IMG/VR virus record: IMGVR_UViG_3300045988_163731
DNA length: 63,234 nt
Source: a virus
Reading direction: 5' to 3' (one strand)
The notes beneath the pieces are model-generated. The model worked only from the letters and a program-made list of their open reading frames with translations. It ran no database searches and was not told the origin of the DNA. Position numbers and translations under genes: made by a program. Positions 42,690 to 57,252 of the stretch are shown piece after piece. The stretch's first letter is position 1. Each line of letters begins with the position of its first letter.

Positions 42690-43230
42690 CATTTTGGTTG
42701 TTTGGCGGCGGTTCAGATTATTGTTAGTTTTCTTGACCGTTTGCGACAAGTGGAGAGCGACCACTATAAAAAGGCAGTCTAATCCAGCTCATGCAGAGAA
42801 TGGATTCGTCTTAACGCGATTGTCTTATGTTTGTGTTGCGTTACGGCGTCAGCAGGTAAAGAGTACCAAGCCTGTGTTAAGCCTAAGTCTTGGTATCAGG
42901 ATAAGCTGTTAGCAATAGCAGCGTGGCAAAAGGGAACGGGGGTATCGTCAGGGCCAGCACCATACTAACCAAGGCTGGGGAGGTACATCAGATAAGCGAA
43001 AGCCAAGCAGTCAGACGCTCGATAACGACTGTAGAACGATGTATGATAAGTCACAAACAGAAACACGGATACTCAAACGACGGGGCATTTTATATACTCT
43101 AGTTCCATGTTTAGGCAGACTTTCTTACGCTTGTCGTAGGAGTAGTCTGTCCAAAAGCCGTTGCTCTCACTCCGAAGCATTTTATATACTCTACAACTCC
43201 GAAGTCAACTCTATTCGTTAAAGTTTTTTT
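42690..43230 (+). ncRNA. Candidate structured non-coding RNA region (function unknown)
   Basis: About 540 bp with GC visibly above the neighbouring sequence. Internal 17-bp direct repeat GCATTTTATATACTCTA (about 43084 and 43173). Several hairpins. Only short R-rich ORFs that look spurious. Confidence 0.25.
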
Positions 43231-43264
43231 AATAGCTTGGCTCAATATTTCAGAATGAGTATAT

Positions 43265-43307
43265 ACTACATATAGTGTTTAATGGATAAAGGAATACTAT
43301 ATGTAGT
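43265..43307. promoter_or_regulatory. Perfect 12-bp inverted repeat ACTACATATAGT / ACTATATGTAGT with a 19-bp spacer, upstream of the lysis cassette
   Basis: Read directly in the sequence. Confidence 0.35.
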
Positions 43308-43512
43308 GGTTAATTTAATTAGTTAATTTTAATATGAGTAGTTAAGAATGATACGCATTATCTTCATTGTGTTAATATAAAACATTTGATATAATATAAT
43401 TGCGCACATAAATGAATAAGACCAGCCGTATTTGAAGCCTAACGCGCTCCCCAGATACGGCATGTCTTGTTTGTATATGTGCTTTTTTTATTATCTTTTT
43501 TGGAGGTGGCAC

Positions 43513-43773
43513 ATGGAGAATGAGGACGTCAGGGCTGAAATTCAAGAGATAAAAGAACAACTGATTCAGATTAGGACGATGCTTGAAATTTTAAACAAGC
43601 AGTTCGGTGAGAATCAGCCAAGGCTGGCGTATCTTGAACGTGAAACCGAGAGGCAGAAGGATAGTTTGAAGCAGGCCCACCATAGGATAGATGAGGTGAA
43701 CACCAGAACTTATTGGCTTATCGGTGCCTGCATTACACTGTTGGGTATTTTTGTTAGTGCATTTGTGAGGTGA
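43513..43773 (+). CDS. XhlA-like lysis-associated protein (coiled-coil plus C-terminal TM)
   Basis: RBS GGAGGTGG before the ATG at 43513. C-terminal TM span YWLIGACITLLGIFVSAFV. Confidence 0.55.
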   Translation: MENEDVRAEIQEIKEQLIQIRTMLEILNKQFGENQPRLAYLERETERQKDSLKQAHHRIDEVNTRTYWLIGACITLLGIFVSAFVR

Positions 43774-43779
43774 TTGCTT

Positions 43780-44061
43780 ATGGAGAAATTAAAACAGCTG
43801 TTTACGGCTATTCAGACAAAACAGATTGGGGTACTTGTAACAGTTATGATGGTATTCCTGGCACTGGTAATGTTTAGCTGGCTTATTGGCTTCTGGGCCA
43901 ATGGACTGTGTGGAGCGAAGTTTGATTTGGGTAGCTGTTGGCAGGGGATTTCTGCAGTAGTAGCAGGCATGACAGGTGTAGCTGCCTTGGCTGGCACAAA
44001 GTATGCCCGATACTATCTTGATAGCAAGTATAATTCTGGTGACGGGGAACGACCAGAGTGA
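43780..44061 (+). CDS. Holin-like protein (two TM spans)
   Basis: RBS GTGAGGTGA before the ATG at 43780. Two hydrophobic helices. Confidence 0.6.
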   Translation: MEKLKQLFTAIQTKQIGVLVTVMMVFLALVMFSWLIGFWANGLCGAKFDLGSCWQGISAVVAGMTGVAALAGTKYARYYLDSKYNSGDGERPE

Positions 44062-44079
44062 TTATTAGGAGGTAATATT

Positions 44080-44516
44080 ATGCAGAAGTATATTGGTGTA
44101 GAAAGATTTGAAGCAAGACCTATGACACTCGGCGATTATAATACTTATCGTGGCTGGCAGATGAAAATCCTGCCGACGAGGGATACCTTATAAAGTATCG
44201 TGGCGGCTATGAAAACTGGTGTTCCAAAGAGCATTTCGAAAAATCCTGTGTTGCGGAAGATGATTCTCCATTGATGGCCACAGTATTCAACATGAAGAGC
44301 CCCGATTATAAGAAACGTTTTGAAGCTGAGTACCGTCAGCTAGAAATTCGCTATGAGAGATTGAAGAAGATGTGTGAAAAGTGGGATGCAGGGGAGCTGG
44401 ATTTCACGCCTACATGTCCGAGAGCCACTTACGATAAGCAGATGGCAGCTATGGTTGACTATTTGAGTGTTTTGGAAGTGCGGGCACATTACGAAGATAT
44501 TGATTTGCAGGAGTGA
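44080..44516 (+). pseudogene. Gene split over two frames (44080-44193 and 44142/44271-44516). Either a frameshifted single gene or two small genes.
   Basis: The frame-0 continuation ...ENPADEGYLIKYRGGYENWCSKEHFEKS is open from 44142 with no ATG until 44271, and follows MQKYIGVERFEARPMTLGDYNTYRGW at a -1 offset. Confidence 0.3.
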
Positions 44517-45010
44517 TTGATATGCAGAGAGCAAAGATTATTGAAACTGATTTGAACTTTAGAGGGCTTGATAACCGCAGGGTGACTGATATGATTGTCA
44601 TTCATCATACGGGCAACCCGACTGATGATGATTTGTCTGCTCATGAAATACATGAGAGCCACAGGGCACAGGGGTGGGCTGGTATCGGCTATCACTACGT
44701 TGTGCGGAAAGATGGCAGCATTGAGAGAGGTCGTCCACATTGGACGATTGGTGCTCATGCTGTTGGCGAAAATTCTCATACTATTGGTATCCATGTGAGC
44801 GGTAACTTTGAAGTTGGTCAGCCAACTGACAAGCAGATTGAGGCATTGGCCATGTTGCTGGGGACTATCTGCTATGAGTACCAGCTCCCCATCGACGGCG
44901 ACCATGTAGTAGGACATCGTGATTTGATGGCTACTGCCTGCCCTGGTGAAAATCTGTACAACATTTTGCAGACTGTACGAGGCAAGGCTATTTGGTATCA
45001 GCAGAATTAA
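44513..45010 (+). CDS. Endolysin, N-acetylmuramoyl-L-alanine amidase (Amidase_2/PGRP fold)
   Basis: DMIVIHHTGNP...GIGYHYVV...GAHAVGENSHTIGIH...DGDHVVGHRDL...ACPG carries the zinc-amidase motifs. Confidence 0.9.
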   Translation: MIDMQRAKIIETDLNFRGLDNRRVTDMIVIHHTGNPTDDDLSAHEIHESHRAQGWAGIGYHYVVRKDGSIERGRPHWTIGAHAVGENSHTIGIHVSGNFEVGQPTDKQIEALAMLLGTICYEYQLPIDGDHVVGHRDLMATACPGENLYNILQTVRGKAIWYQQN

Positions 45011-45020
45011 GGAGAGCACA

Positions 45021-45632
45021 ATGCAGAAAATAAAGGATTGGATTTTAAATAACAAATATAAAACAGCCCAGATTATTACCGCTGTAATCCTGATTGTTCT
45101 GCTTGTATTTTTTGTGGTTAAGGCTTGGGAGGCGCACACAACCAAGCCTGTAACTACAATCCCACAGCAACAGGCGGAAACACCGGCAGGAGTTGAAAAG
45201 GCTGCCAGCAATGCTCACATCAAGCTGGATAGCGGGCAGACTAAGCAGGTGTCGGAAACTATCAGGGAAATCAGGGTGACTGAAAAGGAACCGGTATATA
45301 TAATCCAGACAACAGGTGACAAAGCTCAGGAGGCTTCTGAAAAGGCCAGTAAGCAGGAAAAGGCAGACTTCTCTATAGTCACTGATAAAGACCACCCAGA
45401 CGAGGCCGTAGAGCTTGACAAGTTGGATAAGAACACGACTGTTAATCTGAATCAGTATAATGTTCAGGCTTACAAGAAGCACATCAATACAATAGAGTAT
45501 TACCCTGCTGAAAAGATTGTTGGATATACCCACCAATGGAAAATCAGCAAAAGCGGAAAATATATGGGCGTTGGCGTCGATTATGATACGGACGACCAGC
45601 GTATAATGGCGAAAGTGACATATTCTTGGTGA
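45021..45632 (+). CDS. Membrane-anchored protein after the endolysin gene (possible lysis accessory)
   Basis: RBS GGAGAG before the ATG at 45021. TM span IITAVILIVLLVFFVV. Confidence 0.45.
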   Translation: MQKIKDWILNNKYKTAQIITAVILIVLLVFFVVKAWEAHTTKPVTTIPQQQAETPAGVEKAASNAHIKLDSGQTKQVSETIREIRVTEKEPVYIIQTTGDKAQEASEKASKQEKADFSIVTDKDHPDEAVELDKLDKNTTVNLNQYNVQAYKKHINTIEYYPAEKIVGYTHQWKISKSGKYMGVGVDYDTDDQRIMAKVTYSW

Positions 45633-45732
45633 GCTGATTTGCCTAGAAGTGTAACGATATAGATAATTTGTTCGGCAAAATATTGTCAAAAGGAACATAT
45701 AATCTGAACAAATTTACTAAATATATATTTGT

Positions 45733-45954
45733 TGCTATTATTGCTATTTCTGATTATCAAGAACATGAAAATCAATGTTAGCATAACTATCATAATTATC
45801 AAGATTATAGAATATAATTTATTTATCATTTATATCATGACTAGCATTGTTAACATGATTAGCATGAATATCAATGTTATCAATAATAGCATAAAATATA
45901 ATAATGAAAATAAGAACATAATTACCGATATTAGCATGATTAGCAAGTTTAGCA
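45733..45954. repeat. Iteron-like array of at least 10 TAGCA (and TGCTA) core sites, all in a 9-bp register. Candidate centromere (parS) or origin.
   Basis: TGCTA cores at 45733 and 45742. TAGCA cores at 45779, 45842, 45860, 45887, 45932, 45941 and 45950. Every inter-site distance is a multiple of 9. Confidence 0.7.
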
Positions 45955-45983
45955 TAATTACCAAAGAACGGAGGTGATATTTT

Positions 45984-46724
45984 ATGAGTTTTACAAAAGA
46001 TACACTTGGCACTACGGAATCTGTCGGCGGTGTAAGTCTGTTTGAATCCCTACGCTCTAACCAAAATGCCAGCGGAAGCTACAGTGGATTAATGTCTGCT
46101 GGTGACAAAGCTAAGCTGGATGGGATTGAGGAGGGAGCGAATAAATACATCCATCCTGATTCTCTGGCAGAAGTCGGAACATATATGCAGGTTGTTACTG
46201 ACGAACAAGGACATGTAGTTGGCGGCAGGCTGTTACAAGACAGTATGTTAGCTGATTATAGAATAGTGGATGCATATATTACCGATAACAAAGAGATTGT
46301 ACTTGGAGCTAAAAGGCTTAGGCCGCAAATGCCAGGTGAAAATATAAGCTGGAAGCAGGTTGTCGAAAGACCAAATACAATTGCGGGATATGGTATTAAA
46401 GATGCATATATAGCGGAAAGACTGACAGGAACTATTAATGAGAAAAACCTTCCAGCAAGACTGCAAATAGAGCTTGCTGGTCAGCAGTATGCGGATGGTA
46501 TCGATGCTAAGGTTGAAGCCTTAAAGACAATATCTTATGAAAACTTTAGATATCTGTTTGACGAGATGAAAAATATGGCAGATACGATTGCATTGTTAGC
46601 GAAACAGCTCAGCAATATGCAGAGCAAGTTAGATAATATGAGCGGTTCAGGGGGTTCAGGAGGGACATGCCAATGCACCGATGAAGATGTACAAGACACA
46701 GATGTTGACCAGATATTTAACTAA
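45984..46724 (+). CDS. Tail-fibre protein (contains an LMSAGDKAKLDGIE fibre motif)
   Basis: RBS GGAGGTGA before the ATG. The SA.DK.KLD motif is typical of phage tail fibres. Confidence 0.5.
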   Translation: MSFTKDTLGTTESVGGVSLFESLRSNQNASGSYSGLMSAGDKAKLDGIEEGANKYIHPDSLAEVGTYMQVVTDEQGHVVGGRLLQDSMLADYRIVDAYITDNKEIVLGAKRLRPQMPGENISWKQVVERPNTIAGYGIKDAYIAERLTGTINEKNLPARLQIELAGQQYADGIDAKVEALKTISYENFRYLFDEMKNMADTIALLAKQLSNMQSKLDNMSGSGGSGGTCQCTDEDVQDTDVDQIFN

Positions 46725-46770
46725 ATCTGGCTTATCATAATAATTTATTTTTTTCAAGGAGGACAATAAT

Positions 46771-47340
46771 ATGTCTATTTCAAAAAACACTCTACTTACA
46801 ACTCTCAAGAAAATGCGTCAGAAGCAGGATGTCAATTATGCGGTTGCTGTTGAAAAGCTGACACAGGCTACAGATGGCTTTATTGCGAGCTACGCTGTAA
46901 AGCAGAATGGTGTGCAGGTAGGCGAAACCATTAATATTCCTAAGGACTATTTGGTAAAGTCCGCTGCTATCAAAGAGGCAACCAACACCGATGTTCCATA
47001 TACTGGTGCCAAAAAGGGCGATAAGTATATTGATTTTATTATCAATACTACCGATGGTGCAGGCAATGAATCTCATGTTTATCTGGCAGTAAATGATTTG
47101 GTTGATACTTATACTGGCGGCGAAGGCATTGTTGTAGGTGCGGATAACGCTATCAAAGTGAGCATTGATACAGCAAATGCAAATGGACTGGCTGTAGGTG
47201 CTGCTGGTGTGTCCCTGGCTGTCGCTACTGCGTCTGCTGCGGGAGCAATGAGCGCTGCGGATAAGACTGCCTTGGACAATCTTGCAGCAAATAGCGATGA
47301 GCAGGTTACTAATGAGGACATTAATGGTATCTTTGCGTAA
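46771..47340 (+). CDS. Tail-fibre-associated protein (shares the MSAADKTALDNL motif with the upstream gene)
   Basis: RBS AAGGAGGA before the ATG. A/G-rich C-terminus. Confidence 0.5.
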   Translation: MSISKNTLLTTLKKMRQKQDVNYAVAVEKLTQATDGFIASYAVKQNGVQVGETINIPKDYLVKSAAIKEATNTDVPYTGAKKGDKYIDFIINTTDGAGNESHVYLAVNDLVDTYTGGEGIVVGADNAIKVSIDTANANGLAVGAAGVSLAVATASAAGAMSAADKTALDNLAANSDEQVTNEDINGIFA

Positions 47341-47410
47341 GTAAGATTTATGCTGCCATCTGGCAATGGCTAGGTGGCAGCATAAAAACTTAAAAGATAA
47401 AGAGGTTTTT

Positions 47411-47656
47411 ATGGCTATAACTAAAAAAACTTTATTAAAAACCTTATCAACTTTTCTTCGTGAAGTTGATGAAAGGTATTTTGGCACCGATTCAGTAGCC
47501 ACATCAGTTACAGTTTCAAAACGGGTGCCAACAAACCCCAAAAGCCACTGGGGTAGGCTGGGTGATACTACAGAAGGCGAACTGTTTACAAATTTATTGG
47601 CAGTGTCACAAAGTGCTCCAACTACTCAAAATACAATATGGATAAAGTTCATATAG
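47411..47656 (+). CDS. Small hypothetical protein
   Basis: ATG at 47411 (MAITKK...). Confidence 0.35.
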   Translation: MAITKKTLLKTLSTFLREVDERYFGTDSVATSVTVSKRVPTNPKSHWGRLGDTTEGELFTNLLAVSQSAPTTQNTIWIKFI

Positions 47657-47672
47657 AAAGAAGGAATGTTTT

Positions 47673-48542
47673 ATGTCAACTGATGCAAGTATTATTGGCG
47701 TTGAAAAAGGCCAATACAATGTACCGACAAAAGAAGCTGGTAAATATGTAACTGTTCACTGGGAAACAGAGGTAGGCCAGCTTACAGACCTCACAGGTAT
47801 TTCTCATAACGGCATCTACCGGGGTAAAGACCTGACTAACTATTATGCCAGCGGGGAAATGTCCAAGGCTATCGCAAATGGCAGCTTTAAGGATATCTAT
47901 ATCGGTGACTATATCACCAAGAATATCGTTGTTGGCGGTACTACCTATCAGGTTAAGTGGGAAGTTGCTGATATAGATTACTTCTATAAGTCCGGTGATG
48001 CTTCTTGTGATACTCACCATGTAGTCCTGCTTCCATCAAAGGCTGTGTTTGTTAATATTAAGATGAATGATACCGACACCACTAAAGGCGGCTATGCAGG
48101 CAGCAAAATGTGGAAAGAAACCATTCCTGCTGTTGTTACCGGTATCAAGGCCGCGTTTGGTGCAGACCATGTGGTAAAGCATAGAGAATTGCTGACTATC
48201 AAAGTTTCTGCCACTGCTCAGTCTGTTGCTGGAGCTGGTTGGACTGGCAGTAGTACAGGACAGGCTTGGGCTGATGTAGAAGCTAACATTCCGACTGAGC
48301 CTATGGTTTATGGCGGTACTGTATTTGGTTCTAGTGGATATGATGTTGGAAGTGGCGGGAAACAGTTTGCTATCTTCAGATTCAAGAAGGACTGTTATCC
48401 TGATAGAATGTGGTTTTGGCTTAGAGCGGTGGCTTCGGCGTCTAGGTTCTGCCGCGTCAGCGCTAGTGGCTTTGCGAGCTCCCACGATGCTTCTATTTCG
48501 AACTCCTCTGGCGGCTGTCGCCCGTATTTCCTGTTCCGCTAA
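47673..48542 (+). CDS. DGR target protein (putative receptor-binding protein) with a C-terminal variable region
   Basis: Its 3' 100 bp is the VR. RBS AAGGAATG before the ATG. The C-terminus RAVASASRFCRVSASGFASSHDASISNSSGGCRPY corresponds to TR-encoded IAVASASRFCNVSENGNANYNDASNSNSSGGCRP. Confidence 0.8.
   Translation: MSTDASIIGVEKGQYNVPTKEAGKYVTVHWETEVGQLTDLTGISHNGIYRGKDLTNYYASGEMSKAIANGSFKDIYIGDYITKNIVVGGTTYQVKWEVADIDYFYKSGDASCDTHHVVLLPSKAVFVNIKMNDTDTTKGGYAGSKMWKETIPAVVTGIKAAFGADHVVKHRELLTIKVSATAQSVAGAGWTGSSTGQAWADVEANIPTEPMVYGGTVFGSSGYDVGSGGKQFAIFRFKKDCYPDRMWFWLRAVASASRFCRVSASGFASSHDASISNSSGGCRPYFLFR
48425..48524 (+). repeat. DGR variable repeat (VR)
   Basis: 100 bp, 88% identical to 49059-49158. 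All 12 mismatches lie opposite TR adenines. A GC hairpin GTCGCCCC-CTTC-GTGGGGCGAC follows 24 bp downstream. Confidence 0.85.
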
Positions 48543-48596
48543 CCTTGTCGTCGCCCCCTTCGTGGGGCGACATAATCGCCATTTTTAGGAGGTAAA

Positions 48597-49037
48597 ATGT
48601 CAGTATTAGCGAGAAATAGAAGTCTGTCGAAATTGGAGTTCTATACGACAGCTATAACTTTACGCAGAAAAATTACCAGAGAGCTTTTGATTAATTTTCA
48701 TATTAAGAAAAAGAATCAGGAGCTTGATGAATACTCAATTTGGCTGCTATCAAAACTTCGCGAGTCAATTTATGACATAATGCATGATATTGTACTTAAC
48801 ATCACGCGTGCGTATACAATCTGGGCTACAAGCCGTGCTGAAGCAGACGAAAGAAGGATAGCTCAGGACAGGGCTATTGCAGGGTGCGAAAGCATACTAA
48901 AAGAGCTGGAATTTGCTTATCAGGTACTGCCAGTAAGTGTTGAAAGGTATATGGTTTATGTAGAACTGGTTGAGAAAGAAATCGCCCTCATTAAAGGCTG
49001 GCGAAAATCAGACAACAAACGATATAAAAATTTATAA
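48597..49037 (+). CDS. avd: DGR accessory variability determinant (Avd-like small basic helical protein)
   Basis: 146-aa basic protein between the target gene and TR, the canonical Avd position. RBS AGGAGG before the ATG. Confidence 0.65.
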   Translation: MSVLARNRSLSKLEFYTTAITLRRKITRELLINFHIKKKNQELDEYSIWLLSKLRESIYDIMHDIVLNITRAYTIWATSRAEADERRIAQDRAIAGCESILKELEFAYQVLPVSVERYMVYVELVEKEIALIKGWRKSDNKRYKNL

Positions 49038-49058
49038 TTCTATAGGGTATCAGCTAAT

Positions 49059-49158
49059 AGCGGTGGCTTCGGCGTCTAGGTTCTGCAACGTCAGCGAAAA
49101 TGGCAATGCGAACTACAACGATGCTTCTAATTCGAACTCCTCTGGCGGCTGTCGCCCG
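49059..49158 (+). repeat. DGR template repeat (TR)
   Basis: Intergenic copy of the VR. Its AAC codons read as Asn in the VR frame. Confidence 0.85.
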
Positions 49159-49296
49159 CTTCTCATATCAGTCTACTCATAGACACATAACAGGGAATGA
49201 GCGGATATCCTTCCTTTAAAAGGTAAATAACAGTTGTGTGCAGTCCGTCTAAGGGCGCTGATTGCATATGCACAGCTATCCCCTAGGGGTTGATTA

Positions 49297-50490
49297 ATGA
49301 GAGATTTTACAAATGCAAATAGCTTGATGAGTGCCTACGAGCGTGTCAGAAAAACCAGCGGTTGGAAGGAAAGCACACAGCGGTATGGGCTTAATCTTTT
49401 GCGTGAAACCTACTGGTTACAGAAGGCTTTGCGGGAAAGAAACTACGCACAGCATGAGTGCAATACTTTCAAACTATGTGAAAGAGGTCATCTGAGGTTG
49501 GTAAAGGCTTTAGTCACAAGAGATATGGTTATGCAGCACTCTCTTTGCGATACGGTGCTTGTGCCAGAACTGCTAAAGTACATCATTCACGATAACGGCG
49601 CTAGCATAAAGGGCAAAGGCATTAGCTTTACAAGAAGGCGTTTTGAGCAACACCTTCGCTGGCATTATCGAAGATATAGTACCGAGGGGTATATTTTGAA
49701 AATTGACTTCAGGAAATATTTCGATAACATCCAGCATGGTATCTTGAAAAAGCTGATAGCCGAAAAGATACATAATGAAGATGTACAGTATGTATTGAAT
49801 GAAATTTTCAAAGCTAATGAGGTTGATGTCTCATACACTGATGACACGGACATTTTGCAAAAAGTGTTCAGTTCACTCGAGCAAGAAAAAATTGATACAG
49901 CGCTGCTTACCGGTAAAAGATTTATGCCTAAATCCTTAGGTATAGGTTCTCCGGTATCGCAGATTGCAGGTATCTTCTTTCCTTACAAAATAGACAATTT
50001 TTGTAAAACAGTTAAAGGCATTCATTGTTATGATGCATATATGGATGACAGAATTGTGATTCATAAGTCAAAAGAATTTTTGTGGAACTTGCTTGAAGAA
50101 ATAAAGGTACTTGCAGAAAAGCAGGGTATCACAATTCATCAAGATAAAACACAGATTATTAAGCTGTCCCATGGATTCACATTTCTAAAAACTAAATATA
50201 TTCTTACAGAAACCGGCAAAATAGTTAAGAAAATACCCCGCGATGTTGTTACAGTTGAGAGAAGAAAGCTCAAAAAGCTGGCCACACTGGTAGTATCGGG
50301 GGCTATGAGTCGGGAAAAATTCATTACACAGTATAAGTCGTGGAAAGGAGATAAGCAGAGATACTATAACGCTTATCATACTTTGAAAAATATGGATAAA
50401 ATTTTTAGGAGGCTACTAAAATGGATAACGCAACAAGAGAAACTATTAGACGCAAGCAGCAGGAAATCATCGACCTCATCGGAGAGCTGA
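49297..50490 (+). CDS. DGR reverse transcriptase
   Basis: YMDD box (CYDAYMDDRIVIH), DGR-type LGIGSPVSQIAGIFF motif, and ILKIDFRKYFDNI (RT motif 2). Confidence 0.9.
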   Translation: MRDFTNANSLMSAYERVRKTSGWKESTQRYGLNLLRETYWLQKALRERNYAQHECNTFKLCERGHLRLVKALVTRDMVMQHSLCDTVLVPELLKYIIHDNGASIKGKGISFTRRRFEQHLRWHYRRYSTEGYILKIDFRKYFDNIQHGILKKLIAEKIHNEDVQYVLNEIFKANEVDVSYTDDTDILQKVFSSLEQEKIDTALLTGKRFMPKSLGIGSPVSQIAGIFFPYKIDNFCKTVKGIHCYDAYMDDRIVIHKSKEFLWNLLEEIKVLAEKQGITIHQDKTQIIKLSHGFTFLKTKYILTETGKIVKKIPRDVVTVERRKLKKLATLVVSGAMSREKFITQYKSWKGDKQRYYNAYHTLKNMDKIFRRLLKWITQQEKLLDASSRKSSTSSES

Positions 50491-50666
50491 CAAGCCCCGT
50501 TTCTAAAATAGGTGATTATCGTGTAATCAAGTGCTATGAAGCCACTCTTTCTGGTGCCAAGACTATGCCTTATGACACTTCGACTCTTCTGGCAGAGCGT
50601 CAGAAGGTGCGGGACAAGATTAATGCCCTGCAGGCCGAGGTTGCTCAGCTTGAAGCTGAGCAGTGA
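50421..50666 (+). CDS. Small coiled-coil protein
   Basis: Strong RBS TTAGGAGG before the ATG. Overlaps the RT 3' end in another frame. Confidence 0.4.
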   Translation: MDNATRETIRRKQQEIIDLIGELTSPVSKIGDYRVIKCYEATLSGAKTMPYDTSTLLAERQKVRDKINALQAEVAQLEAEQ

Positions 50667-50825
50667 TACAGGTGAAGATTATGCAGCATGATTTTCAGAA
50701 GATTAAGCAGAAAACTGACTTGCAGCTGCAAGAAGAGTTGAGCGTAAGAACCAATGAAGAGCTGATTGAAATGAACATCCGGCTGTTGAGATTGCTTAGT
50801 CTATATGTAATAAGGAGTGATGGTT

Positions 50826-51104
50826 ATGGACAGGCGGTATGATTTAGGGAAGCTGGGGACAGTTTTAGCTGTACTGACTAACAGGGTGACAAAGGATATG
50901 CGGTGTGTATTGGCGGTTGGCATTATGACTCTTGTGGTCAGCTTAATAACTATGGTGATGGTGCTATACATGGCAACGAATGAGTACCGTGCTGGCGCCT
51001 GCATAGTAGGCACTACGGCTATTACTAGCATATGCAAAACAGCTAAGGCAAAGGCAGGTGCACGCGTAGAGTATGCCAAGCATACAATAGATTGTGTGGT
51101 GTAA
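50826..51104 (+). CDS. Small membrane protein
   Basis: RBS AAGGAGTGA before the ATG at 50826. TM spans present. Confidence 0.4.
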   Translation: MDRRYDLGKLGTVLAVLTNRVTKDMRCVLAVGIMTLVVSLITMVMVLYMATNEYRAGACIVGTTAITSICKTAKAKAGARVEYAKHTIDCVV

Positions 51105-51107
51105 GCT

Positions 51108-51356
51108 ATGTTGTGGCACAGAAAACTGGCTAAGAAATTTCTCAATGAGTCAACTCTCACGGACTTCTGGGACATTGTTAAGGAAGCCAAAATCACAACG
51201 CTAGATATGGAGATATTGGATGCCGTATTCATTGATGGCAAAAGTATGGTGCAGGTTTCGATGGAGCAGGGGTATTCTGTGGAAAAAGTAAAAACCACAT
51301 TGCAGCGTGGCTATGACAAGGTGTATCGTGCGCTGGAAAAGCATAATAAGCTATAA
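51108..51356 (+). CDS. Sigma-70 region-4-like small transcription factor (candidate late-gene activator)
   Basis: LDMEILDAVFIDGKSMVQVSMEQGYSVEKVKTTLQRGYDKV reads as an HTH of sigma region-4 type. Confidence 0.5.
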   Translation: MLWHRKLAKKFLNESTLTDFWDIVKEAKITTLDMEILDAVFIDGKSMVQVSMEQGYSVEKVKTTLQRGYDKVYRALEKHNKL

Positions 51357-51364
51357 GTACATTA

Positions 51365-51400
51365 AAAAAGAGACTCCCATTGCAGAGCCTCTTTTTTGTT
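51365..51400. terminator. Bidirectional terminator
   Basis: AAGAGACTC-N9-GAGCCTCTT followed by TTTTTGTT. Confidence 0.45.
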
Positions 51401-51408
51401 ACAAAATA

Positions 51409-51801
51409 TTATTTCATCAAAAAATAAATTAATATAATTATACCTACTGTTATGAAAAAATATTTAGCACAGCTTCCTGTAGATGATGATATTTTTTTAT
51501 GTGCATAAACTGCCCATTCTTCACGACAACCCATCATTCGGTAGTGCATTTCTCCGATGTTTAACAATAACATATTAGCACTCTGTGTGCTAATACCCAT
51601 TTCTGTAAATAATGCACCTGCTTCTTCTCTTAGGGCGAGTAATTCTTGCTTTTCTGATGGCGGGACAATTTTTAATAAATTTCTAATATCTTCTTTCTCC
51701 ATGCCTGCCATCAGAAGATAGATTTTAGGAACTGTGATATTAAGATTGTTTTCGCCACCTATAGATACAGGCTCCATATCCCATTCAAACATTCCTGCCA
51801 A
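51409..51801 (-). CDS. Hypothetical protein with a C-terminal TM
   Basis: ORF. Confidence 0.4.
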   Translation of the reverse strand: MAGMFEWDMEPVSIGGENNLNITVPKIYLLMAGMEKEDIRNLLKIVPPSEKQELLALREEAGALFTEMGISTQSANMLLLNIGEMHYRMMGCREEWAVYAHKKISSSTGSCAKYFFITVGIIILIYFLMK

Positions 51802-51841
51802 TTCCTTTCTTATCTAATGATTTATGCTGAAATATATTATT

Positions 51842-52204
51842 TTAAGAGTTTTTATTTCTTCCTAGCCGTGGGTGGAACTGTAACATTATAGCTCGTACCA
51901 TCTTCTTACCGCAGTACTCTATATGACTTTTTCGCCTATTAGTGTTTAGCAATGGTAGGCCGATGAATACAAATGCTATATCGTTAATATGATTTGCATT
52001 ATTGGTTGACAGTGACAACACAATTCCAGTAATTCTCAGCTTGTCCCAACACAACGCTTGGTCGGTGTCAGCTATTATGGTTCCCGTAGTTAGGTATTGT
52101 GTAGTTATTGCACTTCTATAATCCTGCTCTGGGATAATGTGCCTTGCATGGAAGCTCATTAACATCAGAGGGAGGACTAAGAAAATGGTCAACCGTTTTC
52201 TCAT
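51842..52204 (-). CDS. Secreted protein or lipoprotein candidate
   Basis: N-terminal signal-like MRKRLTIFLVLPLMLMSFHA. Confidence 0.4.
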   Translation of the reverse strand: MRKRLTIFLVLPLMLMSFHARHIIPEQDYRSAITTQYLTTGTIIADTDQALCWDKLRITGIVLSLSTNNANHINDIAFVFIGLPLLNTNRRKSHIEYCGKKMVRAIMLQFHPRLGRNKNS

Positions 52205-52370
52205 GTGTGCTCCTTACTCGGCAGTAATGATGATAACATCGCCGACAAGCTCGACAATGTCCTCTGTGGTTTCAATGTTCTTACCCACGGGTTTATCCTC
52301 CACAATATATATTTCACCTGCTGCGTTGTCCTTTCATCAGCACAGATTGAATTGGGTGATGGCTATGTGG

Positions 52371-53051
52371 TTATTTGGAAACAGTATGCCCTAAACCTAT
52401 ACCGCCATTTCTAACGGCTTCTTCATAAGTTAGGGTAATGATGTCCCGAATCCTATCCTGTTGTTGCTTAGTGAGCTTGGCTATTTTCCCAGGCTCATTT
52501 ATTGTGCCAGTCATTTCTATATGGCTGATTTTCTTTAGAAATGCTGGGTTGTCTTTAAAGAGGACTTCCAGCAGATTGTAAGATGGAGTGTCTTTATCGT
52601 CTTCAATATTTTGAGCTGCCATTATGCTAAGAGGGTCAACCTGTAGAATCTCAGATAGTTTCTCTATCTTATCTCTACGCATATTGCAGCCTTCCCCAGA
52701 TTCCCAGCAGGACACAGTTGCTTCTGTGACACCTGCATAATCAGCAACCTCTTTTTGAGTTAATCCTAAGTGCAGGCGGCGCTCTTTTATAAATTTAGCC
52801 ATTTCCGAAAAATCCGTTGCCCCCATCAAAACAGCGGGTGTAGTGTGCAATGCTTCGGCAATTTTATATAGCTTTATTTGTTTTGGTACATATTTACCTT
52901 TTAAATATTCGCTTAATGTACCTCCACTTATGCCTGTGGCACGTGATAAGTCTACAGCTCTCAGTCCTGCCCTATCCATATAGCGTTTTAGTCGTGCGGC
53001 AAATTCTTTATTATAAGTAGCACGGTCTTTCACAATAACACCGCCTTTCAT
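52371..53051 (-). CDS. CI-like repressor with two tandem XRE-type HTH domains and no S24 peptidase domain
   Basis: Two HTH_3-like blocks: GLRAVDLSRATGISGGTLSEYLKG and GLTQKEVADYAGVTEATVSCWESG. Divergent from a Cro-like gene. Confidence 0.7.
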   Translation of the reverse strand: MKGGVIVKDRATYNKEFAARLKRYMDRAGLRAVDLSRATGISGGTLSEYLKGKYVPKQIKLYKIAEALHTTPAVLMGATDFSEMAKFIKERRLHLGLTQKEVADYAGVTEATVSCWESGEGCNMRRDKIEKLSEILQVDPLSIMAAQNIEDDKDTPSYNLLEVLFKDNPAFLKKISHIEMTGTINEPGKIAKLTKQQQDRIRDIITLTYEEAVRNGGIGLGHTVSK

Positions 53052-53137
53052 GTATACATATATTATACATAAAAATTATGAAAAAGTACATTAAAAATTT
53101 GGAAAACCATAACTTAAATGTTTGTAAAAAAATAATC

Positions 53138-53166
53138 TTGCATAAAAGCTCAAAATGAGTTATAAT
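53138..53166 (+). promoter_or_regulatory. Rightward promoter TTGCAT-17-TATAAT in the repressor/cro intergenic region
   Basis: Read directly in the sequence. Confidence 0.45.
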
Positions 53167-53228
53167 AAAACTCGGAAATACGAAGAAAACAAAATCCGTT
53201 TCCCAAAAAATAAGAAAGGATTAAGACT

Positions 53229-53468
53229 ATGGAATTTGATTACAGCAAACTCCGAGGACGAATTAGAGAGATTCTAGGTTCAGAAGCAAATTTTTGTGAT
53301 AGAATGCCACTAACTCGCTCCTCAGTAAGCCTAAAGTTAAATGGCAAAGTGGAATTTACTCAAAGCGAAATTGCAGCTGCAATGGAAGTTCTTAAACTAC
53401 CTAAGAGCGCAATAGGCGACTATTTTTTTAAAGAAAAACTTCGGAAAACAGAGGAAGTAAAAATCTGA
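53229..53468 (+). CDS. Cro-like small XRE-family HTH protein
   Basis: MPLTRSSVSLKLNGKVEFTQSEI; divergent from the repressor gene. Confidence 0.65.
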   Translation: MEFDYSKLRGRIREILGSEANFCDRMPLTRSSVSLKLNGKVEFTQSEIAAAMEVLKLPKSAIGDYFFKEKLRKTEEVKI

Positions 53469-53485
53469 AAACAAAGGAGGCTAGT

Positions 53486-54292
53486 ATGAATTTAGTAGTT
53501 ATTGAACACGCAGGAGAGCGTGTGCTAACAACAGAACAGTTGGCAGAGGTTTATGAATGTGATGTAAAACGCATATCGGAAAACTTCAAACGCAATGAAG
53601 ATAGATTCGTTGAAAATAAACATTATTTCAAACTAACAGGGGACTCACTTAAAGTATTCAAGGCTTCATTAGGTAATCAGCAAATTGCGGAAAACCTAAA
53701 ATTTGCTCCTACAATCTATCTTTGGACTCGTCGAGGAGCTTCCAGACATTGCAAGATGTTAGGTACAGATAAAGCGTGGGAAATGTTTGACCGGCTGGAG
53801 GAAACATATTTCAATCCAAAACCTAAACAGTTGACACTAACAGAGCAGATGGCTCAGGGCTTGTTGGCTGCCAAGGAACTATTAGAGGTCAAGAACAAGC
53901 AGGTCAAAGAACTTACAGAAACTTGCTCCCAGCAACAACAGGTGATTGGCGAGCTAAAGCCAAAGGCTGATTATGTTGACAAGATTCTGAAAAGCGATTC
54001 CCTAGTAACCATTACACAGATTGCCAAGGACTATGGCATGAGCGGTCAGGGAATGAACAAAGTGCTTCACGACCTGCATATCATCTACAGCTGTAATAAG
54101 CAGTGGCTTTTGTACAGTCAACATCAGGCCAAGGGATATACATTCTCTGAAACAGTGGATATTCCCAGAGAGGACGGGACTACCAAGGTTGTGATGAACA
54201 CCAAGTGGACACAAAAGGGCAGGTTGTTCTTGTATGAAACCTTGAAGAAACGAAACCTGCTTCCGCTGATTGAGAGAAAAGAACAGGAGTAG
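53486..54292 (+). CDS. Antirepressor with an ORF6N N-terminal domain and a KilA-C-like C-terminal domain
   Basis: ERVLTTEQLAEVYECDVKRISENFKRNEDRFVENKHYFKL matches ORF6N. ITQIAKDYGMSGQGMNKVLHDLHII matches KilA-C. Confidence 0.8.
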   Translation: MNLVVIEHAGERVLTTEQLAEVYECDVKRISENFKRNEDRFVENKHYFKLTGDSLKVFKASLGNQQIAENLKFAPTIYLWTRRGASRHCKMLGTDKAWEMFDRLEETYFNPKPKQLTLTEQMAQGLLAAKELLEVKNKQVKELTETCSQQQQVIGELKPKADYVDKILKSDSLVTITQIAKDYGMSGQGMNKVLHDLHIIYSCNKQWLLYSQHQAKGYTFSETVDIPREDGTTKVVMNTKWTQKGRLFLYETLKKRNLLPLIERKEQE

Positions 54293-54295
54293 AAG

Positions 54296-54502
54296 ATGGC
54301 AGAGATAAAGAAAGCAAGAATCCTATACAGCAATATGTGGATAGGGTTCACAGAAGATAAAAGGAACATTGCAGGGGCTTTCAAAAGTATCTGTGATGGT
54401 TTATCCGAGGCAAACAACTTGGGATACTACCGAGGATATTTGGCAGAGATAGCTGCTAAGTTAGGATTGTTCTTGGAAGATGGTGAGAAGCATGACGGAT
54501 AA
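54296..54502 (+). CDS. Hypothetical protein
   Basis: ORF with an RBS (GGAG) before the ATG. Confidence 0.4.
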   Translation: MAEIKKARILYSNMWIGFTEDKRNIAGAFKSICDGLSEANNLGYYRGYLAEIAAKLGLFLEDGEKHDG

Positions 54503-54665
54503 GGTATGGAATGTCCTCTCAACAAAAGAGAGGGTGGCAATCAAGCGCAAAGTCATATCTGATAGACGAAAGGTAGAGGTTTTTGATTTCGTAAGAGATT
54601 GCTTACTTATTATTGGCTATTTCATTATAGTTGGCTTAGCCTGTGGATTTGGAGGGAAGCCATGA
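54492..54665 (+). CDS. Small membrane protein
   Basis: ORF with a C-terminal TM span. Confidence 0.3.
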   Translation: MTDKVWNVLSTKERVAIKRKVISDRRKVEVFDFVRDCLLIIGYFIIVGLACGFGGKP

Positions 54666-54781
54666 GATATTTACAGATAAAAGCCTGTGAGCGAAAGAAA
54701 ACAATGAATGTTGATTTGCTGGCTGTGTTCTTGGGGGGCTGTGTATTAGGCTTCCTGGCTGGTGTTTACATCTGGGGGTAA
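54662..54781 (+). CDS. Small membrane protein
   Basis: GGAGGG before the ATG. Hydrophobic C-terminus. Confidence 0.3.
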   Translation: MRYLQIKACERKKTMNVDLLAVFLGGCVLGFLAGVYIWG

Positions 54782-54786
54782 ATAAA

Positions 54787-55302
54787 ATGGAAACACTTTA
54801 TGAGATTAACGCAAGATATAACGCTGCAATTCAGATGCATGAAGATGGGGTCAGCGAGCTGGTTGATACCGAGACTGGCGAGATAATTCCCATTGAGGAT
54901 TGGCTGGCAGCGTTGCAAATGTCTAAAGAGGAAAAGATAGACAACACTATCAAGTACCTGAAAAACTGCAAAGCATTTTGTGAAGCTGCCAAGGCTGAGG
55001 TCGAGGTCTTAGAGGAACGCATTGCTAAAAAAGCAAAGAAAGCAGAGCATTTAGAAAAGTACCTGCTTTCACAGCTGGGTGATACAAAGAAGATTGAAAC
55101 CCCGCTGTACTGCTTAAAGGTGCGTACTAGCAAGAGGACGATTGTGCCGAAAGATGAAAAGTTTATTCGAGAGCTGCCACATAAGTATTGGAATGAGAAA
55201 ACCACTGTGGCTGCCGATAAGAAAGCTATCAAGAAAGCATTGGAAAGCGGTGTAGAGCTGGCAGGGTGCTCCATTGTAGAGAACAAAACCTTGTCATACT
55301 AA
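54787..55302 (+). CDS. Sipho_Gp157-family protein
   Basis: About 170 aa, coiled-coil, directly upstream of an AAA_24 ATPase. This is the classic arrangement. Confidence 0.6.
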   Translation: METLYEINARYNAAIQMHEDGVSELVDTETGEIIPIEDWLAALQMSKEEKIDNTIKYLKNCKAFCEAAKAEVEVLEERIAKKAKKAEHLEKYLLSQLGDTKKIETPLYCLKVRTSKRTIVPKDEKFIRELPHKYWNEKTTVAADKKAIKKALESGVELAGCSIVENKTLSY

Positions 55303-55321
55303 AAGGAGGAACAAATTAAGA

Positions 55322-55993
55322 ATGTCAAGAGGAATATTAGTAATGGGGGAGAGTGGTTCTGGCAAGACAACAAGCCTGAGAACCCTTAACCCTGAAACAA
55401 CTTTTATTATTGAGTGTGACGGCAAGGGCCTGAGCTGGCGGGGTTGGAAAAACCAGTACGCCAAGGCCAAGAAGAATTATTTCGAGACTGACAATGCCCC
55501 GATGATAGAGGACTTGCTGGACAGGATTAATTCTGGCTTGCCAAATATCAAGGTAGTAGTAATAGACACTCTTAACATGATTATGGTGAATGATGAAATT
55601 CGCCGTATGAAAGAGAGGGGCTATGACAAGTGGGCAGATTTGGCTACTTGTATTTGGGGGTTGATTGATACAGCCCACAACCTGCGTGACGACCTGACTG
55701 TAGTGTGTATGGCACACACACAGACGGAAAGGGACGATTCGGGCTATCAGTTTACCAGAATGAAAACTTCTGGTAAGAAGCTGGACAAGCTGTGTGTAGA
55801 GAGTAAGTTCTCCACGGTACTGTTATCTAAGTGCCTTGACGGAGAGTATATCTTTGAAACGCAAGCGGATAAGAGTACAGCAAAAAGCCCTATGGGCTGC
55901 TTCGAAAAACAAATTCCTAATGACATGGATTTTGTCATTAGGAAAATGAATGAATATGAATATGGAGAATGTGAAAGCGAGGAAAAGAAATGA
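55322..55993 (+). CDS. AAA_24 / Sak4-like RecA-type recombination ATPase
   Basis: Walker A ILVMGESGSGKTT. Walker B VVVIDTLN. Confidence 0.8.
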   Translation: MSRGILVMGESGSGKTTSLRTLNPETTFIIECDGKGLSWRGWKNQYAKAKKNYFETDNAPMIEDLLDRINSGLPNIKVVVIDTLNMIMVNDEIRRMKERGYDKWADLATCIWGLIDTAHNLRDDLTVVCMAHTQTERDDSGYQFTRMKTSGKKLDKLCVESKFSTVLLSKCLDGEYIFETQADKSTAKSPMGCFEKQIPNDMDFVIRKMNEYEYGECESEEKK

Positions 55994-56580
55994 TTGAAAG
56001 ACCTAATGATTGGAATGAAGCCCCAGCAATTATTGGCGGTGCTAGAACCCTGCCAGCAGGCAATTATAAGTGCAAGATTGTAAATGTGGAAGATTCTCTT
56101 TCCAAGGCTGGCAATAAGATGTTAAAGATTTTTTTTGACATTGATGAGGGCGATTATGCAGGTATCTACATGGATAGATACCTCAGTGATAAAAAAAGTA
56201 ATGAGGGAGCAAATTATCCAAGTGCTGGAGTATATTACCAGCTCCTGGGAGAGGGACAGACTGGCAGATTGAAAGGCCTTGTGCAGTGTCTTGAAATGTC
56301 TAACCCAGCATTTAAGTGGAATTGGGATGAACATGCAATGGAGGGCTGTGTATTCGCTGGTCAGTTCCGTGAGGAAGAATATTTCAATCAGAAAGATGAG
56401 CGGAGAACTTCCACTAGACTGGTGTATATTCATCCTCTGGAAGAGCTGGCCAACCTCGATGTACTGCCAGCGAAGCAGGCTAGCAAGGCAGGTGCACCAC
56501 GAACCAGCGCAGATGCAGAACGACAGCTCGAGTCCATTTTTGGTGGGCCTGCTGCTCCACCTGAACAGATTCCATTCTAA
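55990..56580 (+). CDS. DUF669-like protein (ssDNA-binding candidate)
   Basis: Position in the Gp157-AAA_24-DUF669 triad. Confidence 0.55.
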   Translation: MIERPNDWNEAPAIIGGARTLPAGNYKCKIVNVEDSLSKAGNKMLKIFFDIDEGDYAGIYMDRYLSDKKSNEGANYPSAGVYYQLLGEGQTGRLKGLVQCLEMSNPAFKWNWDEHAMEGCVFAGQFREEEYFNQKDERRTSTRLVYIHPLEELANLDVLPAKQASKAGAPRTSADAERQLESIFGGPAAPPEQIPF

Positions 56581-57248: not shown

Positions 57249-57252
57249 GAAC

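What the first reader, a model, noticed from the sequence alone, without database searches (positions are those of the whole stretch)
47673..50490. Complete diversity-generating retroelement targeting a tail-fibre-cluster gene
The 100-bp segment 48425-48524 (VR), at the 3' end of the 289-aa gene, is 88% identical to the intergenic 100 bp at 49059-49158 (TR). All 12 mismatches have A in the TR and a different base in the VR, which is the adenine-specific mutagenesis signature. The TR is flanked by an Avd-like gene and an RT with YMDD and an SQ-type motif. The variable TR adenines sit in AAC codons. A GC hairpin GTCGCCCC-CTTC-GTGGGGCGAC lies 24 bp after the VR, in the position of a DGR homing-enhancing structure.
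Basis: partly seen in the sequence, partly recalled or inferred. Interest (0 to 1): 0.85.

Follow-up and report, generated by a model that had tools for sequence, protein, structure and literature searches.

The report
Active phage diversity-generating retroelement
This is a genuine, complete and recently active diversity-generating retroelement in a ~63 kb uncultivated phage that rewrites 12 codons of a small lectin-fold surface protein; it is a well-understood kind of system, so it is a solid but ordinary find.

Summary
The cassette is target (289 aa), GC hairpin, avd, TR, a 138-nt structured spacer, then RT. This is the classic avd-TR-RT layout.

- **RT:** its best solved relative is the Bordetella DGR RT, and it keeps IGxxxSQ and YMDD.
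- **Avd-like protein:** it has almost no sequence signal, but it folds as a four-helix bundle whose top structural matches include Bordetella Avd.
- **Target:** a C-type-lectin-fold, DUF6273-like protein.

Activity is shown by comparison:
- A near-isogenic genome has an identical TR but 15 VR differences, all at TR adenines.
- A 92%-identical relative shows 11 non-A TR changes, each copied into its own VR.
- A sister population is hypervariable at the homologous positions.

Caveats. The "tail-fibre cluster" context could not be verified, because the gene lies after the lysis cassette beside unannotatable ORFs. The VR-proximal hairpin has a CTTGT-type 5-6 nt loop rather than the published 4-nt GRNA loop.

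Verdict: a new member of a known kind, of modest interest.

The parts
47673..48542 (+). DGR target gene (289 aa): a C-type-lectin-fold, DUF6273-like variable protein with a low-confidence N-terminus (residues 1-45)
48425..48524 (+). Variable repeat (VR), residues 251-284 of the target; a possible degenerate 5' extension runs from 48412
   Evidence: 11 of 100 mismatches to the TR, all at TR adenines. 15 differences from near-isogenic L036, all at TR adenines. Homologous positions are hypervariable in the sister cluster.
48510..48524 (+). GC-rich 3' end of the VR (GGCGGCTGTCGCCCG), an IMH-like element; its TR counterpart is 49144-49158, after which VR and TR diverge
   Evidence: Alignment. The core G/C columns are invariant in 19 relatives. 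Its role is inferred by analogy with the BPP-1 IMH (PMC5758913, PMC3240598).
48550..48571 (+). GC-rich hairpin/cruciform 25 nt after the VR (8-bp stem, CTTCGT loop); candidate target-recognition element
   Evidence: DNA fold. Present 12-26 nt after the VR in 28 of 32 distinct relatives, with 19 different stem sequences; the loop is CTTGT in 12. No T-run directly follows the stem.
48597..49037 (+). avd (accessory variability determinant), 146 aa, four-helix bundle
49009..49038 (+). Best sigma-70-like promoter match in the region (CAGACA-18-TATAAT), 20 nt upstream of the TR; a possible TR-spacer-RT promoter
   Evidence: Consensus scan only, 10 of 12 matches. Not evidence of function.
49059..49158 (+). 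Template repeat (TR), non-coding, 21 adenines
   Evidence: Identical in L036 while the VR differs. Its non-A substitutions relative to L001 are mirrored in each cognate VR.
49159..49296 (+). 138-nt spacer RNA between TR and RT. Contains a hairpin at 49213-49223 and a three-tier stem at 49233-49276; a further hairpin at 49171-49184 is inferred only
   Evidence: Spacers are 128-157 nt in 21 relatives and share conserved blocks. Covariation: 94.5% of cells paired against 35-46% in slid controls, 13 compensatory pairs, and 0 of 500 shuffles as high.
49297..50490 (+). DGR reverse transcriptase, 397 aa
   Evidence: RVT_1 E 1.4e-11. phrog_1423 E 4e-53. Best PDB match is 8ub7_A, the Bordetella DGR RT. 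R67, I216 and Q222 align with bRT R74, I181 and Q187, and YMDD is at 248-251. 30 of 35 viral relatives and 21 of the closest viral and genome relatives carry their own A-biased TR/VR pair.

Best explanation
This is a complete, functional diversity-generating retroelement of the avd-TR-RT (Bordetella phage BPP-1-like) architecture, carried by a ~63 kb circularly assembled phage.

Proposed mechanism. The TR and the structured spacer are transcribed, possibly together with the 3' end of avd. The RT-Avd complex binds this RNA and reverse-transcribes the TR, misincorporating opposite adenines. The mutagenised cDNA replaces the VR at the 3' end of gene 47673-48542, with homing directed by the GC-rich VR end and the downstream GC hairpin. 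Twelve codons, seven of them AAY, are randomised. They lie on the C-terminal beta-strands and loops of a C-type-lectin-fold, DUF6273-like protein. This gives about 1.6e11 possible peptides, and no stop codon can arise. The protein is most likely a virion-exposed ligand- or receptor-binding protein, so diversification would alter binding specificity.

Shown here: all the parts, the adenine specificity, TR-to-VR information flow, and natural VR diversification. Inferred by analogy with BPP-1: cis-priming from the spacer, the hairpin's role in homing, and receptor binding by the target.
For: - **TR/VR:** 11 of 11 mismatches fall at TR adenines (P about 2.5e-9), and the window holds only one VR and one TR.
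- **Activity, near-isogenic genome:** L036 has an identical TR. Over window 42866-58542 it differs at 2 positions outside the VR and at 15 positions inside it, all at TR adenines. Between them the two VRs have changed 18 of the 21 adenine positions.
- **Activity, 92%-identical relative:** L001's TR differs at 11 non-A sites, and each VR carries its own TR's variant at all 11.
- **Activity, sister population:** 15 sister-cluster proteins are hypervariable, with up to 9 residue types per position, at the homologous positions.
- **RT:** the best solved match is the Bordetella DGR RT, with the conserved fingertip Arg, IGxxxSQ and YMDD.
- **Relatives:** they almost all carry A-biased TR/VR pairs in the same layout.
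- **Avd:** the fold matches 8ub7_B and 4dwl.
- **Target:** CLec fold, with hits to the known DGR variable proteins.
- **Hairpin:** conserved with varying stems.
- **Spacer:** covariation supports a structured RNA.
- **Published precedent:** DUF6273 targets with a C-terminal VR are described in PMC11792537 and PMC10743442.
Against: - There are no read-level or experimental data for this genome, so activity is inferred from comparison between assemblies.
- Avd has no Pfam, NCBIfam or PDB sequence match, and it lacks about 32 residues present in most relatives.
- The hairpin loop (CTTCGT, 6 nt) departs from the 4-nt GRNA loop. Changes of that kind abolished homing in BPP-1 (PMC3240598).
- The target does not reach the Pfam DUF6273 threshold (13.7 bits against 23.5).
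- The target's place on the virion is unknown, and its neighbours could not be annotated.
- The single-sequence fold of TR plus spacer is no better than shuffled sequence (z -0.97).
Confidence: 0.93

Rival explanations
1. The cassette is a decayed or currently inactive DGR relic. On this view the A-specific TR/VR pattern is a fossil of past activity, and the element no longer diversifies in this genome.
For: There are no read-level data. Avd is shortened by about 32 aa relative to most clade members. The hairpin loop is 6 nt, where most relatives have 5.
Against: All ORFs are intact. A genome 99.7% identical overall, with only 2 other differences across about 15.7 kb, has 15 VR differences confined to TR adenines and an identical TR, so homing happened very recently on the scale of genome divergence. 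L001 shares the short Avd and still shows concerted TR-to-VR copying.
Confidence: 0.05
2. The RT belongs to another retroelement class (group II intron, retron, or a defence-associated DRT/UG or Abi RT), and the TR/VR similarity is an unrelated duplication.
For: NCBIfam's best hit is the group II intron RT/maturase model, followed by Drt2, Drt3a and retron models. PADLOC lists generic RT and DRT hits.
Against: All of these hits fall far below the family cut-offs: 55 bits against 300 for group II, 30 against 390 for Drt2, and 24 against 235 for the retron model. There is no intron RNA or other Rfam match near the cassette. The repeat's mismatches are exclusively at adenines. The best solved homologue is the DGR RT. 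Relatives of this RT consistently carry TR/VR pairs.
Confidence: 0.01
3. The element is a DGR, but the target is not a tail-fibre receptor-binding protein. It may instead be a capsid or collar decoration protein, or an adhesin that binds something other than the bacterial receptor (for example mucus or other host-environment ligands).
For: The gene lies after the lysis cassette, not in the main tail module at 22-38 kb. It is small (289 aa) and has no recognisable fibre-attachment domain. Neighbouring ORFs have no fibre annotation. The published literature leaves the role of such DUF6273 targets open (PMC10743442).
Against: The target is 35% identical over 84% of its length to the C-terminal part of Lactobacillus phage JCL1032 ORF23, annotated as a tail fiber or structural protein possibly associated with host specificity. 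Structural neighbours include proteins named 'Receptor Binding Protein' and 'Tail-collar fiber protein'. In Acutalibacter phage Fontainebleau the homologous cassette directly follows the minor tail genes.
Confidence: 0.25

Closest known systems
Bordetella phage BPP-1 DGR (mtd-avd-TR-brt)
   Same: Same gene order: target with a 3' VR, a GC hairpin, avd, TR, a ~140-nt spacer, then RT (138 nt here against 140 nt in BPP-1; 10.1101/2023.10.23.563531). Mutagenesis is adenine-specific. The RT aligns to bRT with R74, I181, Q187 and YMDD conserved. The Avd fold matches 8ub7_B and 4dwl. The target has a CLec fold with a C-terminal VR.
DUF6273-type DGR targets of gut Firmicutes phages (nd4/nd12 'tgt2'; Faecalibacterium prophages Lelie, CP11, Roos, Pioen)
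   Same: A small single-domain CLec-like protein of 234-294 aa with the VR at the C-terminus of the DUF6273 domain, inside a phage DGR cassette (PMC10743442, PMC11792537). The RTs of nd12 and nd4 are detectable homologues at 32% and 28% identity.
   Different: The window protein itself is below the Pfam DUF6273 threshold. There is only one target gene and no tentaclin-type second target. The closest relatives sit in Selenomonadaceae and other Negativicutes genomes rather than in Faecalibacterium.
Prophage DGRs of Selenomonas ruminantium S137 (L040, same as L002) and related rumen or gut Negativicutes MAGs
   Same: RT 59-62% identical. Identical layout, a homologous target and Avd, the same conserved spacer blocks and structure, and the same hairpin position.
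   Different: Those Avd proteins are about 175 aa and include a ~32-aa segment absent from the window. TR sequences and hairpin stems differ. They are integrated in bacterial contigs, whereas the window is a circularly assembled phage genome.
Acutalibacter phage Fontainebleau (ON453893) cassette
   Same: A target homologue (36% identity), a small ORF in the avd position, and an RT (38% identity) occur in the same order.
   Different: That cassette sits between the minor tail genes and the holin/amidase genes. In the window the cassette follows the lysis genes.

Membership tests
Diversity-generating retroelement (DGR) | A TR/VR repeat pair whose mismatches are (almost) exclusively at TR adenines | tested here: met
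   11 of 11 mismatches at TR adenines over 100 bp. Only one pair in the window.
Diversity-generating retroelement (DGR) | A DGR-clade reverse transcriptase (YxDD active site and the [ILV]GxxxSQ motif; closest to known DGR RTs) | tested here: met
   IGSPVSQ at 216-222 and YMDD at 248-251. Best PDB hit is the Bordetella DGR RT 8ub7_A. 30 of 35 viral relatives and 21 of the closest viral and genome relatives have an A-biased TR/VR pair. No formal phylogeny against curated DGR RT sets was made.
Diversity-generating retroelement (DGR) | VR within the coding sequence of a target gene, with TR adenines concentrated in AAY codons | tested here: met
   The VR covers residues 251-284 of a 289-aa ORF. 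7 of the 12 adenine-containing codons are AAC or AAT, and no stop codon is reachable.
Diversity-generating retroelement (DGR) | An accessory protein (Avd-type four-helix bundle) adjacent to the TR | tested here: met
Diversity-generating retroelement (DGR) | A GC-rich inverted repeat (hairpin/cruciform) a few to ~34 bp downstream of the VR, with a 7-10 bp stem | tested here: met
   8-bp GC stem 25 nt after the VR. Conserved position with 19 different stems in relatives. Criteria from PMC3240598.
Diversity-generating retroelement (DGR) | A 4-nt hairpin loop of consensus GRNA on the sense strand (the phage DGRs surveyed by Guo et al. 2011) | tested here: not met
   The loop is CTTCGT (6 nt). The clade's loops are 4-8 nt, mostly 5, with CTTGT in 12 of the 28 relatives that have a hairpin and other T-rich loops in most of the rest. 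This is a feature of the published subset rather than a defining requirement of DGRs.
Diversity-generating retroelement (DGR) | A structured spacer RNA downstream of the TR that supports cis-primed reverse transcription | tested here: inconclusive
   A conserved 128-157 nt spacer with strong covariation is shown. Homology to the BPP-1 Sp, or a priming role, could not be tested.
Diversity-generating retroelement (DGR) | Ongoing mutagenic retrohoming (TR-to-VR transfer with A-to-N changes) | tested here: met
   Comparative evidence only. L036 has an identical TR and 15 VR differences, all at adenines. L001's TR changes are mirrored in its cognate VR. The sister population is hypervariable. Experimental demonstration is not possible with these tools.
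C-type-lectin-fold DGR variable proteins | A CLec fold with the VR forming the C-terminal strands and loops | tested here: met
Pfam DUF6273 (PF19789) | Score at or above the Pfam gathering threshold (23.5 bits) | tested here: not met
   13.7 bits, E 0.057, over residues 225-286. Homologue P0082 reaches 23.5 bits, and BFVD structural neighbours are DUF6273 proteins. The protein is therefore a divergent relative by fold, not a member by the sequence threshold.
Mtd (BPP-1 major tropism determinant) | An N-terminal beta-prism plus beta-sandwich domain preceding the CLec domain; detectable homology to Mtd | tested here: not met
Group II intron RT/maturase; retron RT; defence DRT/UG RTs | Score above the curated family cut-off | tested here: not met
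   TIGR04416 scores 55 bits against 300, Drt2 30 against 390, Drt3a 27 against 200, and retron St85 24 against 235. PADLOC hits reach 68 bits at most and are generic.

The most novel reading that the evidence does not exclude
This RT/Avd clade runs from about 33% to 97% RT identity and occurs in phages and prophages of Selenomonadaceae, Dialister, Acutalibacteraceae and related gut or rumen Firmicutes. It may use a distinct target-recognition hairpin: a GC stem with a conserved pyrimidine-rich 5-nt loop (CTTGT) in place of the 4-nt GRNA loop that is sequence-critical in BPP-1. That difference may have co-evolved with its highly divergent Avd and its own conserved spacer RNA architecture. If so, this would be a mechanistic sub-type of DGR homing with different loop-protein or loop-RNA contacts.
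Probability: 0.35. Interest if true: 0.45.

Novelty: new member of a known kind. Interest (0 to 1): 0.3.

Why it matters
This is a clean, fully annotated example of a naturally active DGR in an uncultivated ~63 kb phage whose closest relatives are prophages of rumen and gut Negativicutes. It offers three things of practical value.
- Direct between-sample evidence of adenine-restricted diversification and of concerted TR-to-VR copying.
- A compact 289-aa lectin-fold scaffold with about 1e11 stop-free variants, of potential use for DGR-based protein engineering.
- Comparative definitions of two cis elements, a CTTGT-loop hairpin and a covarying spacer RNA, that can be tested against the Bordetella paradigm.

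It does not change what is known about how DGRs work.

Tried and rejected
- **Deposited phages:** megablast of the cassette found no match.
- **More VR variants:** exact-pattern scans with the TR, N at every A, found 0 hits in viral contigs and in metagenome contigs, so no further variants of this exact element came from those collections.
- **Target by sequence:** Pfam, NCBIfam and PHROGs gave nothing above threshold. PDB sequence search gave only noise.
- **Avd by sequence:** a single-sequence and an 18-sequence profile search against the PDB, Pfam and NCBIfam found no Avd. Only PHROG 3206 and the fold comparison identified it.
- **Spacer RNA:** the single-sequence RNA fold of TR plus spacer was not better than shuffles (z -0.97), so structure had to be shown by covariation. 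Rfam has no family for the spacer; the only window hit is RAGATH-18, elsewhere.
- **Hairpin as terminator:** I considered that the hairpin is just an intrinsic terminator. No T-run directly follows the 8-bp stem, and only a weaker overlapping 5-bp stem at 48566-48580 is followed by a T-run. The loop is conserved while the stems vary, which fits a recognition element better, though a dual role is not excluded.
- **Second, remote VR:** none was found, even with a sensitive BLAST.
- **Upstream neighbours:** attempts to annotate 45984-46724 and 46771-47340 as fibre proteins failed.
- **Spacer helix rejected:** RNAalifold's helix pairing GGGAAUGAG with AUCCUUCC rests only on invariant pairs, and its 3' end (alignment columns 108-109) is also claimed by the better-supported CC...GG hairpin. 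I left it out of the structure tested.
Full report
**1. Observation**

The segment 48425-48524 aligns without gaps to 49059-49158. All 11 have A in the intergenic copy (TR) and a different base in the coding copy (VR). The TR holds 21 adenines, so 11 random mismatch positions would all fall on A with probability about 2.5e-9. A pattern made from the TR with N at every A matches only these two places in the window, against 0 expected in shuffles. A sensitive BLAST finds no further VR. Upstream of 48425 the homology continues weakly to 48412, with 3 A mismatches and 2 non-A mismatches, which is a typical fuzzy 5' edge.

The VR is in frame at the 3' end of ORF 47673-48542, covering residues 251-284 of 289. 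The TR adenines occupy 12 codons: 4 AAC, 3 AAT, and AGG, AGC, GAA, TAC, GAT. Randomising them gives about 1.6e11 peptides, and no stop codon is reachable.

**2. The protein components**

*RT (49297-50490, 397 aa).*
- It matches RVT_1 and phage RT phrog_1423 at E 4e-53.
- Its best solved relative is 8ub7_A. The entry title and the residue numbering (I181, Q187, YMDD at 213-216; 10.1101/2023.10.23.563531, PMC3240598) identify that chain as the Bordetella phage DGR RT.
- In the alignment, R67, I216 and Q222 of the window RT correspond to bRT R74, I181 and Q187. IGSPVSQ is at 216-222 and YMDD at 248-251.
- Hits to group II intron, retron and DRT models are far below their cut-offs.

*Avd-like ORF (48597-49037, 146 aa).*
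- It has only a weak PHROG 'Avd protein of DGR' hit (E 2e-6), which 17 of 18 orthologues share.
- It has no Pfam, NCBIfam or PDB sequence match, even with a profile.
- The window and L001 versions lack about 32 residues that other clade members have between helices 1 and 2.

*Target protein.*
- It models well, with pLDDT 86.6 overall and 90-97 across the VR.
- Predicted viral structures that match include DUF6273 proteins, a 'Receptor Binding Protein' and a 'Tail-collar fiber protein'.
- By sequence it stays below the DUF6273 threshold.
- DUF6273 targets with a C-terminal VR are already described for gut phages (PMC10743442, PMC11792537).

**3. Evidence that the element works**

- *Relatives.* 30 of 35 viral relatives of the RT and 21 of the closest viral and genome relatives carry their own TR/VR pair with A-biased mismatches, and 20 of those 21 show an avd-like ORF between VR and TR. 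The prophages include Selenomonas ruminantium S137, Anaerovibrio slackiae, Dialister and Selenomonadaceae MAGs.
- *L001 (about 92% nucleotide identity).* Its TR differs from the window's at 11 non-adenine positions. In each genome the VR carries its own TR's base at all 11. The VRs also differ from each other at adenine positions. This is concerted TR-to-VR copying in both lineages.
- *L036.* This 61-kb contig from another sample is 99.7% identical to the window. Between window 42866 and 58542 it differs at two positions outside the VR (48391 and 58243), and its TR is identical. Inside the VR it differs at 15 positions, every one a TR adenine. The two VRs together have changed 18 of the 21 adenine positions.
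- *Sister cluster.* In a cluster 81% identical to the target, 15 variants from different samples show up to 9 residue types at positions 251, 254, 256-258, 260, 262-265, 268, 270 and 272. With the 7-residue offset, the first 12 of these are exactly the window's adenine-containing codons, and the last maps to residue 279. The other 235 residues or so show a few biallelic sites.
- *L037.* It is the same genome as the window (100% identity over 21 kb), and the window protein is itself in the public collection.

**4. Cis elements**

*GC-rich VR end.* The VR and TR both end in GGCGGCTGTCGCCCG and then diverge. The core G and C positions of this block are invariant in 19 relatives. By analogy it is the IMH-like element (PMC5758913).

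*Hairpin.* Twenty-five nucleotides after the VR, and 7 nt after the stop codon, lies an 8-bp GC hairpin with a 6-nt loop at 48550-48571. A comparable hairpin lies 12-26 nt after the VR in 28 of 32 distinct relatives. There are 19 different stem sequences but a conserved loop: CTTGT in 12, with other T-rich loops of 4-8 nt, mostly 5, in most of the rest. This matches the published rule that stem structure matters while the loop is sequence-constrained (PMC3240598). The loop itself does not match the published 4-nt GRNA consensus, and a CTTT loop or a loop enlarged by 2 nt abolished BPP-1 homing in that study. No T-run directly follows the stem. A weaker overlapping 5-bp stem at 48566-48580 is followed by ATTTTT, so a terminator role is not excluded.

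*Spacer.* The TR-RT spacer is 138 nt (49159-49296), against 140 nt in BPP-1. It is 128-157 nt in relatives and carries conserved blocks (CTTCTCA, CAGGGAATGAG, ATCCTTCC, GGTAAATA). A hairpin at 49213-49223 and a three-tier stem at 49233-49276 are supported by covariation:
- 94.5% of cells are paired, against 35-46% with slid partners.
- 13 of 17 pairs show compensatory changes, against 4-6 in the slid controls.
- 0 of 500 shuffles reached the observed values.

Whether this RNA cis-primes as the BPP-1 Sp does is an inference.

*Promoter.* The best promoter-like match in the region (49009-49038) lies just upstream of the TR. This is suggestive only.

**5. Context**

The window has a 75-bp exact terminal overlap, so it is a circular assembly of about 63,159 bp. 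It is a phage:
- large terminase, portal and major head protein at 14-21 kb, and a 2997-aa protein with a lytic transglycosylase domain at 29-38 kb;
- an XhlA-like protein and an amidase at 42-45 kb;
- a cI-like HTH protein, antirepressors and replication genes after 52 kb.

The DGR follows the lysis genes. The three small ORFs between the amidase region and the target (45984-46724, 46771-47340, 47366-47656) match nothing annotated. The 'tail-fibre cluster' label is therefore unverified.

The fibre link rests on the target's own homology. It is 35% identical to the C-terminal half of Lactobacillus phage JCL1032 ORF23, annotated 'tail fiber protein; possibly associated in host specificity'. The homologous cassette in Acutalibacter phage Fontainebleau sits between the minor tail genes and the holin.

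**6. Comparison and verdict**

The element works like the Bordetella BPP-1 DGR and belongs to the avd-TR-RT architecture class (B1 in PMC5758913). Its target is of the DUF6273/CLec kind already reported for gut Firmicutes phages. Three things differ from the paradigm:
- the small single-domain target;
- an Avd that only fold comparison recognises;
- a clade-specific hairpin loop.

None of these changes the category, so this is a new member of a known kind. The most novel reading still open is that the CTTGT-loop hairpin, together with the divergent Avd and spacer RNA, marks a mechanistic sub-type of target recognition. That needs experiments.

Confidence that this is a bona fide and recently active DGR is about 0.93. 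Confidence that the target is specifically a tail receptor-binding protein is much lower, about 0.6.

Noticed in passing
window 540-612 (+): Full-length RAGATH-18 RNA (Rfam RF03064), 67.1 bits against a gathering score of 44.9, near the start of the window.
   Followed up: no
window 1-75 and 63160-63234: The first and last 75 bases are identical. The window is therefore a circularly closed assembly, or has a short terminal repeat, of about 63,159 bp. The ENA copy of the same genome is 63,214 bp.
   Followed up: partly
window 29324-38317 (+): A giant 2997-aa ORF whose only recognisable part is a lytic transglycosylase / 'lytic tail protein' domain at residues ~470-600. In L036 the corresponding product is called at 2173 residues.
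   Followed up: no
window 48597-49037; alignment A3: The window and L001 Avd proteins (146 aa) lack a ~32-residue segment, located between the first two helices, that all 16 other clade members (~175 aa) have. L001 still shows TR-to-VR copying, so the short form appears functional.
   Followed up: partly
window 48391: The only non-VR difference from L036 inside the target gene is A to G (D240G), 34 nt upstream of the VR boundary and outside the TR homology. It is probably an ordinary SNP, but it lies next to the diversified surface.
   Followed up: no
window 39284-39514 and 40188-40339: Against the otherwise 99.7%-identical L036 there are two short, indel-rich, highly divergent patches, in and upstream of the Rha-like gene 39865-40806. 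The changes are not adenine-specific, so they are unrelated to the DGR.
   Followed up: no
window 49009-49038 (+): The best sigma-70-like promoter match in the region (10 of 12) lies inside the 3' end of avd, 20 nt before the TR. It could give a separate TR-spacer-RT transcript.
   Followed up: no
window 50421-50666 (+): An 81-aa ORF overlapping the last 70 nt of the RT gene matches phrog_17180 (unknown function) at E 1e-15. It was not called as a gene in the public annotation of the same genome.
   Followed up: no
window 41367-42167 (-): A ParA/CbiA-family ATPase gene lies near Rha and cI-like regulators. I did not see an integrase in the parts examined, so a plasmid-like prophage lifestyle is possible.
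   Followed up: no
window 45984-46724 and 46771-47340 (+): Both ORFs upstream of the target carry a similar short motif, SAGDKAKLDGIEEGANKY and SAADKTALDNLA. The first gives motif-level hits to unknown-function PHROGs. From memory the motif resembles fibre-protein motifs, but I could not verify this.
   Followed up: partly
sister cluster P0003 and P0242-P0255, residue 272 (window residue 279): The sister population varies at one extra position (D, G or V) that is not an adenine codon in the window's TR. This implies that its TR has an additional A there.
   Followed up: no
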